Source of the DNA: Raja brachyura
Taxonomy: Eukaryota
Reading direction: 5' to 3'
NCBI GenBank assembly: GCA_963514005.1
Contig: OY740812.1
Coordinates: 30,876,001-30,940,000 of the forward strand
Length of the DNA: 64,000 bases
Shown one piece after another: positions 42,001 to 51,000 of the stretch; position 1 is the first letter of the stretch; each line of letters starts with the position of its first letter. Position numbers: made by a program.

Positions 42001-45000
42001 TCTTCAGAATAATGAATGAGGAGAGAATAAGATCTGTCTTGTGGTGGAATCTCATTTAAGGTGTGGGAGGTTTTTGAGAATGATCTATTGACTGTGGAGG
42101 CTAGAAGGGTAAAATTTGAAGACATGGCAAACTCCAAGTTTTTTGATGGGAGGAAAGGGAGTTAGAGTGGGTTGCTGGAGATGGAGGAGGAGCACTTGAG
42201 AGCCCTGACAACCATGGTGAAGAGGAAACCATGGTAAAGATAAAAGGACAGTGCCTTTTCAATGTTGAGGGTGAAAATCTTATTATCAGATCAAGTACAA
42301 TGAAGATGGAGAATCTGGGGGTACTAAATAATGTCCCCACAGGAAGCATGATTGGGAGGAGATGTAATTGAGACAGTGTTGGGAATTTGTGCACTTATAA
42401 TGGATATTGGTTGCCTACTTACAGTATTCCTTCGGATGTGATGACAAGGGAAGAAACAGGATGGACCATTTTGAGTTGAGAGTAAGGTTGAAATTGACAG
42501 TAAAGGTGATAAGATTTTCAAATTCTCTGATGAAGGCGGAAGGGTGGAAATTGGAAGCTGTGACTAGTAGTAGGATTCCATTGGAGGTGGCAAAAATGTC
42601 AGAGGATTATATTTTGTATGTGATGGCTGATGAAATGGAAGGTAAGGACTATGAGGACCCTGTCCCTGTTGCGACTTGGGGGATGGGGAGCAAGGGCGAA
42701 GCTGCGAGGTACTGAGGAGACAAGTGTGAGGGCCTCATCTATGATGGAAGAGTGGAACCCCCGTTCCCCAAAGAATGAGGATATCTCAGATGTCCTGATA
42801 TGGAACACCTCATCTTGGGTGCAGATGCGGCGTAGACGGAGGAATTGGGAGTAGGGGATAGAGTCTTTGCAGGAAGCAGGGTGGAAAGAAGTGTTGTCAA
42901 GATAGTTGTGGGCATCAGTGGGTTTGTAATAGACGTCAGTCGATGGTCTATCTCCTGCGATGGAGTCTGCTAGATCAAGAAATGGGAGAGAGGTGTCGGG
43001 TGGACCAAGTGAATTTGAGTGCAGGATGGCAATTAGTGATGAAGGTAATGAAGTCTATGAGATCTGCATGCGTGCAGGAAGTAGAACAGATGCAGTCGTC
43101 AATGTAACTGAGATAGAGTTCGGGGGTAAGGCCAGTGTACGGCTGGAACAAGGATTGTTCAACGTACCGTACAAAGAGGCAGGCACGGCTGAGACTCATG
43201 TGGGTGCCCATAGCTATGCCTTAGACTTGGAGGATGTGGGAGGAGTTGAAGGAGAAGTTGTTAAGGGTGAGGATCAGCTCCGCTAGGCGGAGGAGAGTTA
43301 GTAGAGAGAAATTGGCTGGTTCTGTGGTTGAGGAAGAAACGGAGGGGTTTAAGGCCTTCCTGGTGGGGGGTGGAGGTGTAGAGTGACTGACCGTTCATAG
43401 TAAAGATGAGGGAGTGGGTGCCCAGAAAGCGGAAGGCATTAAAGAGATGAATAGCATTTGAGGTATCTTGTACATAGGTCAGGAGAGATTGGACCAGGTG
43501 TATAGGGTGGAATTGAGGTATGTGGAAATGATTTCAGTGGGACAGGAGCAGGCGGAAACAATGGGTCTGCCAGGGCACCTTGTATCTTATTGCAGCTAAA
43601 GAGTAACTTTACTGGTGGAATTTTGTGTTGTTGATGGAGTTTCATAAAATTTAAGAAGTTAAGATGTGCATTGATTCAAGTTTTCAAGATATGAAATAGA
43701 AATGAATGAATAGATAGTGGAGAACAGCCTCCACTGGGGGGGGGGCAAATCAAGTTATCAAATTGGGGAGCAAACCGCCAGGAGTGGTTAGGAAACATTT
43801 GTGGATGCTTAGGATGGTAAAAACTTGGAACTCGGCAAACAGCAATTGTTAATTTTAATTTCCCTTTAGAATTGCCACTGAAAAATGTAAATACATTGGA
43901 GTTTATGTGACTAGAAAATATACCTCTCTATTCCAAGCAAAATCTCCACCATTTATTACTAAATTAAATGCCCTTATTCAATTTTGGAAAACACTTCCTA
44001 TTTCCCTTATAGGTAGAGTAAATGCTACAAAGATGATTTTCCTCCCACAACTACTTTACCTATTTCAATCTATACCTATTTATCTCCCTAAAAGCTTTTT
44101 TAAAAAACTTGTCTCTGTGATTACAAACTTTATCTGGAATTATAAAACTCACAGAATTCACAAACGACATTTATGTAAACCTACAGAAAACAATGGATTG
44201 GCATTCCCCAATTTTATTTTCTAATACTGGGCAACTAATATTAAAAATTTAATCTACTGGATGGATGATACATGTCAACAAGTAAAATGGTTAAAAATGG
44301 AGAGGGAAGATTGTTCGCCTTTTAATATCGGCATGATTCTTCTTTCTCCAATACATCTGGGACTAGGGGAAAATAAATGGTCGGCATGGACTGGAAGGGC
44401 CGAGAAGACCTGTTTCCGTGCTGTAATTGTTATATGGTTATCTGAATAAATCAACGTATGAGAAAAATCCGATAATTCATGGCACCCTACGAATTTGGAA
44501 ACAGTTGAAATCAACTCTCAAATTGAGAAATTTTACTTCGGAGTCACGTGAGTGACTACGTGAAGACCCCGCCAGCACGCATACGTGACATATCGTCGAA
44601 TGCATTGCGAAGCAACAGGCAGGGAGGAGGGTCACTCCTCCGCCGGTAAGTTTAAAACGGACCTACAGGTGAGTATTTACTATCCTGAGGTCATTTTGCG
44701 GGCACTCTGTTGTGGTTTTTGTTACAGAGTACCCCACCATGGACAAGTCACGAACCAAGTCCAAACGGGCCGCTTCGAGACTGACTGCGGAGGACTGCAG
44801 GAACGCGGGCAGTCAGTAGTGGCCGACTTCTCCAGAGCTGCTTGTTGTTCAAACGGCAGCCCCCGACTTGCCGCCGCAACAGCCCGCAGGAGCACCTCGG
44901 ACTGGTGGCAAAGCCACCCAGAAGTCGGGAAAGCCCGTTGACTCGGCAGGGTCCGGGCTGGAAGATTCACCGCCCGCGGGAAGTGACGGCAGTCGATTAT

Positions 45001-48000: not shown

Positions 48001-51000
48001 TTGGAGTTCCTGGCAAGTATACATTTTGATGAAGGCTTGAATTATAGTGCCATCAACTGGCACTATAACTCAAATTAAATCCGAAGCTACGATGGGTGAG
48101 GTGGAGGGGGGGATGGGGTGAGGTGAGGTGGAGGGGAAGGGGCAAGGTATATCTCCACGTCTTCTTTTCTTATTTCTTTTTCTTTCCGCTGCACTGCTTT
48201 GGTAGCTTAGGGTTGTTCGTTTCCATTTTATCTCTTCATTTTTTCTTTTCTTCTTTTCTTGCTTTCCCTTTTTTCTCTTTTCCCTTTAAAAAAAAATGTA
48301 GGTTATAAGGTTAAAAATGAAGCTGTACGATAATTGTATATTTGTCGATGCCGAGCGTTTTATCCTTATACAATTGCTTCTAATAATAATAAATAAATAA
48401 ATATATGAAATAGAAATTAATTAATAGATAGTGGGGAACAGCCTCCACTGGGGGTCCCAAATCAAGTTATCAAATTGGGGAGCAAACCGCCAGGAGTGAA
48501 GTTAGGAAACGCTTGTGGATGCTTAGGATGGTAAAAACTTGGAACTCGGCAAACAGCAATTGTTAATTTTAAACTGGGCGATTTTGACAATAAAATGTAT
48601 TAAGATGTATGTGGAAAAAACAGATATATAACATTGTCACATATCAGATGGTGAAGTATTTAGCTACCCATTTAAACCATTATCACAGGTGTGGCACAGT
48701 GGCACAGCTGATAGCAAGCCTGACTTTAAGTGCTCTCTGTGTGGAGTTTGTACATTATCCTTGTGACCATGTCGGTTTCCTCGGATCCTCACACATCCCA
48801 AAGCTGTGCGTATTTGTGGGTTAATTGGCCTGTGTAAATTGCCCCTAGTGTATAGAGAGTGGATGTGAAAGTGGGATAAGATGGAACTGATTGCTAGTTG
48901 GCGTGGACTCGGTGGGCCATTTCCATGCCGTATCTTTCAATCAATCACAGCCCAGTTTTCCTTATTTTTTAAATGCTGAAAAATAAAACCTTTATATCTC
49001 TCTGACTGATCTTTTGTAATGGATTAAAAGTATTGCTAGAGCAATTACTGACAAGTTTAAAAACCCAGACATACTTTCAACTTCTTTATTTGCAAGTGTA
49101 GGTTTATTTTAATATGACTTATACTTCTCAAGCAAACTGACAGATGTATTAAAACATGGAGCTATCAAGCCATAAAATACAAGAGCTAATCGATAGTTAC
49201 TTTTTTTAAACTATTGTCTTTCTGGCAAACATTTTGCCTGATGGAAATTTATCTTTATAAATCTCTGTCATTTCTTCTACAACGCACTAAGCAGGAGAAT
49301 AGCACCAAACTTTCATTCCACCCTAGTTTTAACTGAACAGCTTCTTAAAACGTCCTCCTCTATTGTGTTTTCCTAAATTACTCTGTTGTTTGTAATTCTT
49401 TCTTCCTTTTCCATTTAGTGTGGTGTTCCCGAGAGTTGCAATGATCGCACAATGATTGTTTTGGAATGATCTAAAGAAATGAAAGGTACAATCTATGTCC
49501 AAGTTCTATCTTCTTTAAAGAACATCACTACAGGTTAGAATCGACAAAGTAGTGCAATTTACCATCTGCATTAAACCACATCCCATCTCCTTTACCCTAT
49601 CTCATAGCACAATACACAACAGTCCCAAAGAACTGAAGATGCTAGTGTTTATCATTAATGTTTAGTGTTTTCTGAGTCATTCGTAACTGTCACTGTATGT
49701 CATGTTGTTACTTGTGGGTGGAGCACCAAGGCAAATTCCTTGTATGTGAATACTTTGTCAATAAACTTACTTTCTTACTTACTTACTTACTTACGTACTT
49801 ACGTACTTACTTACATCGAAGATAGACACAAATTTCTGGACTGAGGAAGTCTGAAGAAGGGTCTCGACCCGAAACGTCACCCATTCCTTCTCACCAGAGA
49901 TGCTGCCTGTCCCGCCGAGTTACTCCAGCATTTTGTGTCTACGCATAACAGTCCTAACATGGTCTGCTAGGAAGTACACTTGAAATATACTTGTTTGATG
50001 TTACAGCTAAATTGTGGCATGAAAAAGCCAACATTTATTTCTCCTATTTGAGGAATTTCACTGTGCTAACAGGTCTAATCTCTATTGCCTTGTACAGGAA
50101 ATAATTCGGGATCTTCTGATGAAGCCCTTTATATCAGGTAGATCTCATCACAACAAGGTTCACCTCTGTATATGCGATCCTTCATGTTTTTTTGAAACTA
50201 GGAACAACATCAAGTTCTTTGTAAACCAATAATTTTCTTTCAAATAGCTTCCATAATTGTCTGCTGTTAATGTGCATCTTGATTTGAATTTTATTTGAGC
50301 TGTTTGTAAATTAAACTATGTTTGAAATGCTTCTTTGCAAAGTTGTAAGCAAGGTCAGAATTGTGAGAAATTCCATACAAAGCATTTTATCGGGATGCAT
50401 CACAGCATGGTTTGACAACATGGTTTCAAGACTGCAAGAAATTGCAGAGAATTGTGGAAGCAGCCCCGACCACCACACAAACCAACCTCCCTTCCATTGA
50501 CGCCATCTATACTTCACGCTGCCTCGGCAAGGCCACCAACACAATCAAGGATGAGTTTCACTCCTCTTCATCTTCACCACCCTCATCAGCCAAGAGGTAC
50601 AGAAGTGTGAAAATGCATATTTTTGAATCCAGAGACAGTTTTGGTTGTCAATATCTCCCAGTTTAAAATTAACAATTGCTGTTTGCCGACTTCCAAGCTT
50701 TTACCATCCTAAGCATCCATAAGTGTTTCCTAACTTCACTCCTGGAGGTTTGCTCTCTGATTTCAGAACTTGATTTGGGACCCCCAGCGGAGGCTGGTCC
50801 CCACTATCTTTGCATTAATTTCTGTTTAATACCTTGAAAACTTGAATCGATGCACATTGTAACTTCTTCAATTTTAGGAAACTCCACCAACAACACCAAA
50901 ATCCATCAGTAACGCTACTCTATAGCAGGAGTGCGATACCATGTGGAAATAAGCCCTTCCACCAAATCCACGATGACCATTGATGATCCATTCACAGTCC

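What the first reader, a model, noticed from the sequence alone, without database searches (positions are those of the whole stretch)
43689..48572. Second, different L1 also flanked by a very long (170-bp) duplication: a recurring long-TSD mechanism?
Seen: 43689-43858 and 48403-48572 bracket an L1 precisely (ORF2 begins at 43859; the TAA/TAAA tail ends at 48402). Its ORF2 peptide differs clearly from the 5894-7493 element, so the events are independent. Both L1s found in the window show >150-bp duplications, while short retroelements nearby show 11-15-bp TSDs. Inference: L1s of this lineage may routinely generate long target duplications, a source of local sequence duplication that I do not recognise as described.
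Basis: partly seen in the sequence, partly recalled or inferred. Interest (0 to 1): 0.72.

Follow-up and report, generated by a model that had tools for sequence, protein, structure and literature searches.

The report
Two L1 inserts with long duplications
Two old, 5'-shortened L1 retrotransposon copies in this fish-like genome are each flanked by an unusually long (170 bp and about 270 bp) duplication of the target DNA, a rare but already described outcome of L1 insertion.

Summary
43689-43858 and 48403-48572 are direct repeats (160 of 168 aligned bases identical, blastn E 6e-67). They abut an L1 ORF2 fragment on the left and a TAA/TAAA tail on the right.

An inverted paralog of the target repeat at 50645-50945 carries one copy of the 170 bp, contiguous with both outer flanks. 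The two local copies share 16 derived sites against it. The duplication therefore arose at this locus, with the insertion.

The interior is not one L1:
- 43859-44537 is the only identifiable L1 coding sequence (ORF2 aa ~762-968).
- About 3.5 kb is a nested DIRS-like element.
- The rest of ORF2 is missing.
- The 3' piece cannot be verified as L1.

The second L1 (5894-7494, AATAAA plus A10) is flanked by 271/284-bp repeats with the same divergence (K2P 0.05).

These are the only two L1-clade fragments that 15 full-length ORF2 queries find in the window. They belong to different L1 lineages (38% aa identity).

I read both as target-primed insertions with a distant second-strand break. L1 duplications over 100 bp are in print, so the mechanism is not new. 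Whether they are routine in this genome cannot be tested with n=2.

The parts
43689..43858 (.). Left copy of the 170-bp target-site duplication. It could start at 43686 if AAG/AAT is counted.
   Evidence: 160 of 168 ungapped columns identical to 48403-48572. It is contiguous upstream with the rest of the target repeat (43578-43688), as in the paralog.
43859..44537 (+). 5'-truncated L1-clade ORF2 fragment (aa ~762-968 of ~1266), with frameshifts and stops.
   Evidence: 73 proteins with E<=1e-3 among 148 candidates. The full-length ones (~1260-1295 aa) carry PF03372 (endonuclease) and PF00078 (RT). tblastn gives 45-58% identity.
44379..44443 (+). 65-bp fragment of another short retroelement nested in the L1, flanked by GAAAATAAAT (44369-44378) and GAATAAAT (44444-44451).
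   Evidence: Read. The L1 protein alignments skip this stretch. That it is a retroelement tail rests on my recall of similar repeat ends, not on a call.
44538..48057 (+). Nested DIRS/Ngaro-like tyrosine-recombinase retroelement, 3'-truncated. Its left boundary is approximate.
   Evidence: Pfam RVT_1 E 6e-11 on 46335-47015; 48 proteins with E<=1e-3 among 1103 candidates; 1 of the 48 (P0096, 1284 aa) also carries PF00589. Its aa 167-1041 align to 45162-48057.
48058..48380 (+). Unassigned G-rich then CT-rich low-complexity DNA plus a putative LINE 3' UTR. No ORF2 C-terminus is present.
   Evidence: 9 L1 ORF2 queries against 47800-48420 at E<=10 gave 13 hits, all with E>=0.83. Sequence read.
48381..48402 (+). 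(TAA)3(TAAA)3-like 3' tail, absent from the paralogous target copy.
48403..48572 (.). Right copy of the 170-bp target-site duplication.
   Evidence: It continues downstream into the rest of the target repeat (48573-48590 clearly, weakly to ~48641).
50645..50945 (-). Inverted paralog of the target repeat. It acts as a paralogous 'empty site', with one copy of the 170 bp between both outer flanks.
   Evidence: 43576-43858 matches 50945-50663 (84.2% over 285) and 48404-48590 matches 50831-50645 (89.8% over 187). Alignment A1. Site patterns: 16 L=R≠P, 2 L=P≠R, 6 R=P≠L, 144 invariant, 4 gap columns.
5623..5893 (.). Left copy of the 271/284-bp duplication of the other L1.
5894..7494 (+). Other 5'-truncated L1-clade fragment (ORF2 aa ~790-1240, 3' UTR, AATAAA, A10).
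   Evidence: 13 proteins with E<=1e-3 among 1908 candidates. tblastn gives 50-61% identity to ~1233-1270-aa proteins with endonuclease and RT domains. Tail read.
7495..7778 (.). Right copy of the 271/284-bp duplication of the other L1.

Best explanation
Each locus is one target-primed reverse-transcription (TPRT) insertion of a 5'-truncated L1-clade element. The bottom strand was nicked at the left edge of the duplicated segment and primed cDNA synthesis on the tailed RNA. The top-strand break used to finish the insertion lay 170 bp (second case) or about 271 bp (first case) downstream, not the usual ~15 bp. Filling in the two long complementary 3' overhangs duplicated the target.

Shown here:
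- The precise T-insert-T anatomy.
- RNA-type 3' ends at the right junctions.
- For the 170-bp case, a single copy of the segment in a paralog.

Inferred:
- Where the distant break came from. I favour a host-generated or delayed break during a slow, aborted reverse transcription, because both inserts are 5'-truncated. This matches what is described for long-TSD inserts in cultured human cells.
- The later history of the second insert: a 65-bp retro fragment inserted, then a DIRS-like element inserted, and a deletion removed the DIRS 3' part together with ORF2 aa ~968-1266.
For: - **Repeats and junctions:**, with E 6e-67 and 1.5e-112. L1 homology begins at the first base after the left copy. The tails end at the last base before the right copy. 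The first case has AATAAA 12 nt before A10, the mark of a polyadenylated RNA.
- **Paralogous empty site:** one copy of the 170 bp lies between both outer flanks. L and R share 16 derived sites against the paralog, versus 2 and 6 for the other patterns.
- **Not an assembly duplicate:** the copies differ by 5% (K2P 0.049 and 0.050).
- **Target sites:** both are pyrimidine-run/purine-run junctions on the nicked strand (TTTTC|AAGA, and within ACGAAGGA|ATG), read. This is loosely like the L1 endonuclease preference.
- **Literature (passages read):** long TSDs over 100 bp are a known minority outcome, and are associated with 5'-truncated inserts (PMC5223499; PMC2912911; 10.1101/2024.12.14.628481).
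Against: - The 3' piece of the second insert (48058-48402) has no detectable L1 coding homology. No other copy of that L1 family is in the window. That the tail belongs to the same L1 as 43859-44537 is therefore inferred from strand and position only.
- No empty site, paralogous or orthologous, is available for the first case.
- The endonuclease-like target motifs are degenerate.
- The second-strand sites (TTTTAA|AC and CCCAAA|CC) show no common motif.
- The origin of the distant break is not addressed by any data here.
Confidence: 0.8

Rival explanations
1. Long duplications are the routine outcome of L1 insertion in this genome. This is the reader's inference: a host- or lineage-level property, not two outliers.
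For: - 2 of 2 L1-clade fragments detectable in the window by 15 full-length ORF2 queries have duplications over 150 bp.
- They belong to two L1 lineages with 38% aa identity, which points to the host and not to one element.
- Both have the same TSD divergence, K2P 0.05.
- If the rate were at most 10%, as reported for HeLa (PMC5223499), 2 of 2 has a probability of at most 0.01 (my arithmetic).
Against: - n=2, and the window was flagged because of these repeats, so selection is post hoc.
- Very short L1 fragments consisting of 3' UTR only would be invisible to protein queries, so the denominator is unknown.
- The L1-clade TSD peak is reported as 13-15 bp in human, cow, opossum and zebrafish (PMC4245944).
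- No paper found in 7 searches reports long L1 TSDs in a non-mammalian germline.
Confidence: 0.3
2. A pre-existing tandem duplication of the target, into whose junction the L1 later inserted.
For: Tandem and near-tandem repeats do occur in the window. One example is 11390-11538 / 11794-11942, with a SINE-like insert near the junction.
Against: - The paralog has a single copy.
- The insert would have to hit the exact unit junction with a 0-bp TSD of its own, and do so twice independently.
- In the comparison case at 11.5 kb, the insert sits inside the second unit and has its own 11-bp TSD. The L1 loci do not look like that.
Confidence: 0.05
3. A replication-based tandem duplication (template switching, MMBIR-type) with L1-derived DNA as filler at the junction, and not retrotransposition.
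For: The T-filler-T topology is the same. The interior of the second case is a three-part mosaic, all on one strand (L1, DIRS-like, tailed piece). Template switches could also produce that.
Against: - In the first case AATAAA plus poly(A) sits exactly at the junction.
- In the second case a microsatellite-type LINE tail, absent from the paralog, sits at the junction.
- Both tails are at the side expected for TPRT.
Confidence: 0.07
4. The repeats are part of the element (terminal repeats or a 3' transduction), or an assembly artefact.
For: None specific. I considered it because the nested element is DIRS-like, and such elements carry terminal or split repeats (recalled, not tested).
Against: - The 170 bp is contiguous with both outer flanks in the paralog.
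- The repeats lie outside the L1 fragment, not at the DIRS ends.
- The repeat finder found no terminal repeats inside 44200-48420.
- The two loci's repeats are unrelated to each other.
- The copies are 5% diverged, with indels.
Confidence: 0.03

Closest known systems
Long-TSD (>100 bp) L1 insertions recovered in cultured human cells (HeLa, HCT116; frequent in NER-deficient lines)
   Same: Each is a 5'-truncated L1 insert with an RNA-type 3' end, flanked by a direct duplication of over 100 bp of target. This is interpreted as a second-strand break far from the first nick (PMC5223499 passages; PMC2912911 passages).
   Different: The copies here are fixed or old germline insertions (5% TSD divergence). 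The host is non-mammalian and fish-like. The elements come from two divergent L1 lineages, one with a TAA/TAAA tail and not poly(A). Lengths of 170 and ~271 bp sit at the low end of the range reported for NER-deficient cells (median 1495 bp).
L1-associated small tandem duplications ('large TSDs') and larger L1-mediated duplications in tumours and L1-expressing cells
   Same: The topology is the same: duplication, L1 with tail, duplication (10.1101/2024.12.14.628481 passages; PMC7058536 passages).
   Different: Those cases are 1-10 kb up to megabases, are somatic, and are attributed to break-induced replication or sister-chromatid invasion. The duplications here are a few hundred bp or less.
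LINE clades with family-typical long TSDs: R9 of rotifers (126 bp) and Dualen-4b of Chlamydomonas (median 900 bp)
   Same: Long duplications are a regular outcome of a non-LTR element's insertion (PMC9977147 passage).
   Different: Those are other clades with other endonucleases (RLE, or RLE plus APE). For the L1 clade the reported peak is 13-15 bp across hosts (PMC4245944).

Membership tests
L1-clade non-LTR retrotransposon (both inserts) | ORF2 homologous to APE-endonuclease plus RT proteins of L1 type, including the L1-type C-terminal region | tested here: met
   45-61% identity to ~1233-1295-aa proteins carrying PF03372 and PF00078. The endonuclease and RT parts themselves are absent from both copies because of 5' truncation. 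Clade placement rests on homology only; no tree was built.
L1-clade non-LTR retrotransposon (both inserts) | 3' end with an A-rich or simple-repeat tail directly at the target junction | tested here: met
   First case: AATAAA plus A10. Second case: (TAA)3(TAAA)3-like run at 48381-48402, but that 3' piece cannot be tied to the L1 by homology.
Long-TSD TPRT insertion | Direct repeats of target DNA exactly abutting both ends of the insert | tested here: met
Long-TSD TPRT insertion | The empty site carries one copy of the duplicated segment | tested here: inconclusive
   Met through a paralog for the 170-bp case. No orthologous or allelic empty site was available. Nothing is available for the 271-bp case.
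Long-TSD TPRT insertion | L1 endonuclease-type target (TTTT/AA-like) at the first-strand nick | tested here: inconclusive
   Degenerate matches only: TTTTC|AAGA, and within ACGAAGGA|ATG. The consensus is recalled and is also quoted as TT/AAAA in PMC2912911.
DIRS/Ngaro-like tyrosine-recombinase retroelement (nested element) | RT/RNase H followed by a tyrosine recombinase, and no endonuclease or integrase | tested here: inconclusive
   RVT_1 E 6e-11. The element is collinear with P0096 aa 167-1041 of 1284, a protein with PF00078 and PF00589. The catalytic recombinase part is deleted in the window, and only 1 of 48 relatives listed carries PF00589.
DIRS/Ngaro-like tyrosine-recombinase retroelement (nested element) | Inverted or split direct terminal repeats | tested here: not met
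   None found within 44200-48420. The element is 3'-truncated, so this is uninformative.
Penelope-like element (neighbour of the target repeat) | RT followed by a GIY-YIG endonuclease | tested here: inconclusive
   RVT_1 scores 19.3 bits against a cut-off of 29.6, and GIY-YIG scores 20.4 bits against 22.6, in the right order at 51948-53254. Both are below Pfam's curated cut-offs.

The most novel reading that the evidence does not exclude
In this fish-like genome, second-strand cleavage during L1 integration is routinely uncoupled from the first nick. Kilobase-scale L1 inserts of at least two divergent L1 lineages then leave 150-300-bp target duplications, while short retroelements keep ~10-bp ones. 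That would be a host-determined shift, for example in flap or NER-type processing, or in replication-coupled completion at nucleosome- or Okazaki-sized intervals. It would make L1 a systematic source of short local duplications in a vertebrate germline.
Probability: 0.3. Interest if true: 0.7.

Novelty: new member of a known kind. Interest (0 to 1): 0.4.

Why it matters
[quoted passage not shown] Papers read here argue for an element-specified ~15-bp offset (PMC4245944) and for host repair factors that keep the break close (PMC5223499).

Two old germline L1 inserts from different lineages with 170-bp and ~271-bp duplications show that the long-TSD outcome survives in a natural vertebrate genome. 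If a genome-wide count showed it to be common here, the species would be a natural contrast to mammals and zebrafish for asking which host factor sets TSD length. L1 would also have to be counted as a source of short tandem-like duplications. If the two are outliers, they are only well-preserved examples of a known aberrant outcome.

Tried and rejected
- **Penelope 'pseudo-LTR' idea.** I asked whether the repeats were terminal repeats of the neighbouring RT/GIY-YIG element. Rejected: the duplicated segment lies in a separate ~300-350-bp repeat that abuts that element at 43577, and the interior is not Penelope sequence.\n- **L1 homology running into the left repeat of the first case.** tblastn extends to 5836. 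Rejected as a chance extension: about 5 of 19 residues match, in CT-rich sequence, and there is no L1 homology after the right repeat.\n- **Search for the missing ORF2 C-terminus in 47800-48420.** Nothing credible found.\n- **Terminal repeats of the nested element.** None found.\n- **Rfam scan of 42000-53500 at E<=0.01.** 0 matches, so the target repeat stays unclassified.\n- **Aligning six copies of an abundant repeat to read short TSDs.** The copies end at different points, so it was unusable.\n- **Two older direct-repeat pairs** (942-1093/2151-2290 and 11390-11538/11794-11942) as possible further long-TSD events. No retro tail sits at the junctions. The second looks like a tandem unit with a SINE-like insert that has its own 11-bp TSD.\n- **Protein Atlas look-up of the RT/GIY-YIG ORF.** Not available.\n- **Not attempted.** No tree, structure or complex prediction was run, because none bears on the question. 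Supplementary tables of the cited papers, which may hold full TSD length lists, were not consulted.
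Full report
**What the window is.** It has no N. I do not take it for human, for two reasons:
- Its L1 fragments are closest (49-59% aa) to unnamed proteins and to teleost entries.
- It carries a DIRS-like element and RT/GIY-YIG (Penelope-like) copies.

That such elements are absent from human DNA is my own knowledge. The species was not identified. My impression that some interspersed repeats look elasmobranch-like is recall only. No spliced gene model was involved in this finding.

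**The observation.** The repeat finder and a self-blastn confirm direct repeats at 43686-43858 and 48400-48572 (92.6% over 175 columns, E 5.8e-67).
- In the three-way alignment the core 43689-43858 / 48403-48572 has 160 of 168 ungapped columns identical: 8 substitutions, two 2-column indels, K2P 0.049.
- The left copy is followed at once by an L1 ORF2 reading frame. For 8 of 9 full-length L1-type queries the homology starts at 43859-43865. The ninth is carried 11 codons further, across two stop codons.
- The right copy is preceded at once by a 22-nt (TAA)3(TAAA)3-like run at 48381-48402.

**What lies between the repeats.** It is not one L1.
- *L1 fragment.* 43859-44537 matches ORF2 residues ~762-968 of ~1266-aa proteins that carry the endonuclease (PF03372) and RT (PF00078) domains. 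One search found 73 proteins with E<=1e-3 among 148 candidates. tblastn identity is 45-58%.
- *Small nested fragment.* The L1 piece holds a 65-bp fragment of another short retroelement at 44379-44443, flanked by GAAAATAAAT / GAATAAAT.
- *Nested DIRS-like element.* From about 44538 to 48057 the DNA is a DIRS/Ngaro-like retroelement on the same strand. Pfam RVT_1 scores E 6e-11. One search found 48 relatives with E<=1e-3 among 1103 candidates, and one of them, P0096, also has a tyrosine-recombinase domain. Its residues 167-1041 of 1284 align collinearly to 45162-48057. Its recombinase catalytic part is missing.
- *Missing L1 C-terminus.* ORF2 residues ~968-1266 are also missing. Nine ORF2 queries against 47800-48420 at E<=10 gave 13 hits, none better than E 0.83.

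The simplest history is a DIRS-like insertion into the L1, followed by a deletion across the DIRS 3' part and the L1 C-terminus. A chimeric cDNA made by template switches is an alternative I cannot exclude. The 345 bp before the right repeat (low-complexity DNA plus a putative 3' UTR and tail) is therefore assigned to the L1 only by strand and position.

**The target and a paralogous empty site.** The duplicated 170 bp is part of a ~300-350-bp interspersed repeat. It spans 43578-43858 plus 48573-48590, and continues weakly to ~48641.
- Its left end abuts the end of an RT/GIY-YIG element at 43577. Another copy of that element, at 30098-31585, stops at the same position.
- A second copy of the target repeat lies inverted 2 kb downstream, at 50645-50945. 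It matches 43576-43858 (84.2% over 285) and 48404-48590 (89.8% over 187).
- In alignment A1 it carries the upstream flank, one copy of the 170 bp, and the downstream flank, all contiguously. It has no TAA/TAAA run.
- Over the core, 16 sites are shared by the two local copies against the paralog. Only 2 and 6 sites show the other two patterns; 144 are invariant and 4 are gap columns.

The two local copies are therefore sisters. They were produced at this locus after it diverged from the paralog, and the boundaries of the duplication coincide with the ends of the insert.

**The companion case.** The other L1 spans 5894-7494.
- It covers ORF2 residues ~790-1240 at 50-61% identity to a different set of ~1233-1270-aa endonuclease-plus-RT proteins.
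- It has a ~150-bp 3' UTR, AATAAA at 7467-7472 and A10 at 7484-7493.
- It is flanked by 5623-5893 and 7495-7778 (90.8% over 284 columns, E 1.5e-112). 258 of 271 ungapped columns are identical, with one 13-bp indel and K2P 0.050.
- No paralog of this target exists in the window.
- The two L1 peptides share 33 of 88 aligned residues. The two targets are unrelated. The events are independent, but they have the same TSD divergence.

**How complete the sample is.** I used 15 full-length ORF2 proteins from the two lineages as tblastn queries: 9 and 6.
- They find L1-type C-terminal homology only at these two places.
- Three further RT-only fragments (26420-27039 minus, 32229-33504 minus, 56592-57524 plus) match at 21-35% identity and are of undetermined clade.
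- None of the three is flanked by a long unique direct repeat. One search lists 10 unique direct pairs with spacing under 12 kb.
- L1 fragments consisting of 3' UTR only would escape this search.

**Mechanism.** The anatomy is what TPRT predicts when the top-strand break lies far downstream of the bottom-strand nick:
- tail-side junction at the left edge of the duplicated segment;
- 5'-truncated end joined at its right edge;
- both long 3' overhangs filled in.

The nick sites (TTTTC|AAGA, and within ACGAAGGA|ATG) are only loosely endonuclease-like. The second-strand sites (TTTTAA|AC and CCCAAA|CC) share no motif. At the first case's 5' junction a 4-nt overlap (CAAA) is possible. The Q codon before NIRKD is shared with 3 of the 6 relatives compared. 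This is inference.

I favour a delayed or host-made second break during an aborted reverse transcription, for three reasons:
- Both inserts are 5'-truncated.
- The short nested retro fragment has a ~9-bp duplication.
- This is the pattern reported for human cells.

Pre-existing tandem duplication, replication-based duplication with L1 filler, element-borne repeats and assembly artefact are each disfavoured. The reasons are given under the rival explanations.

**Comparison with what is known** (passages read; no supplements consulted).
- Servant et al. (PMC5223499) state that TSDs over 100 bp occur in HeLa but never exceeded 10% of recovered events. In NER-deficient lines they report 4 of 7, 21 of 23 and 22 of 28 inserts with TSDs over 100 bp.
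- Kojima (PMC2912911) notes that in HeLa assays 5'-truncated inserts were frequently coupled with extremely long TSDs. That genome survey only covered 5-30 bp.
- Yamaguchi et al. (PMC4245944) report an L1-clade TSD peak of 13-15 bp in human, cow, opossum and zebrafish, and argue that the element sets the length.
- Tumour and induced-expression studies treat small tandem duplications as large TSDs (10.1101/2024.12.14.628481; PMC7058536).
- Family-typical long TSDs are reported for R9 (126 bp) and Dualen (median 900 bp) (PMC9977147).
- A review of vertebrate L1 mentions only short TSDs and says nothing on sharks (PMC5381506).
- In 7 full-text searches I found no report of long L1 TSDs as a germline pattern in a non-mammalian vertebrate. 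Subscription-only papers are outside that library.

**Verdict.** The lineage-level claim is open.
- Two of two under a rate of at most 10% has probability of at most 0.01 (my arithmetic).
- Against that, the sample is two, the window was selected for this feature, and no further DNA of this genome could be examined.
- I put 0.3 on long duplications being common for L1 in this genome.

Noticed in passing
window 44538-48057 (+): A DIRS/Ngaro-like tyrosine-recombinase retroelement nested in the L1. It has gag-like, RT and RNase H regions and the N-terminal recombinase part, is 3'-truncated, and has several frameshifts.
   Followed up: partly
window 51948-53308 (+), 42524-43577 (-), 30098-31585 (-): Three diverged copies (about 71-79% identity in pairwise blastn) of an element with RT followed by GIY-YIG (Penelope-like). 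Both Pfam hits are below the curated cut-offs. Two of the copies end at the same 5' position.
   Followed up: partly
window 43578-43858 + 48573-~48641, and ~50595-50945 (-): An unclassified ~300-350-bp interspersed repeat, the L1 target, present as an inverted pair about 2 kb apart. There is no Rfam match.
   Followed up: partly
window 942-1093 and 2151-2290: An older unique direct-repeat pair (78% over 152 bp) around 1057 bp of mixed repeats. No retro tail sits at either junction. Origin unexplained.
   Followed up: partly
window 11390-11942: A 149-bp unit repeated (78%), with a palindromic hairpin SINE-like pair (11552-11793) inside the start of the second unit, flanked by 11-bp GGTGAGAGATG. 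It is part of a GC-rich cluster of such hairpin elements at 10159-11942.
   Followed up: partly
window 13601-13978 (+): An ORF with an immunoglobulin-type domain (Pfam Ig_3 E 3.9e-9, V-set E 2.2e-8). It is probably an exon of a host gene.
   Followed up: no
window 54417-55033: A tandem array with a period of about 82 bp (84-88% between units).
   Followed up: no
window 38295-38423 and 49649-49777: A 129-bp pair at 93% identity, 11.3 kb apart, with no other copies in the window. Not examined.
   Followed up: no
window 26420-27039 (-), 32229-33504 (-), 56592-57524 (+): Three further LINE RT fragments (21-35% aa identity to L1 RTs) of undetermined clade, without long flanking repeats.
   Followed up: partly
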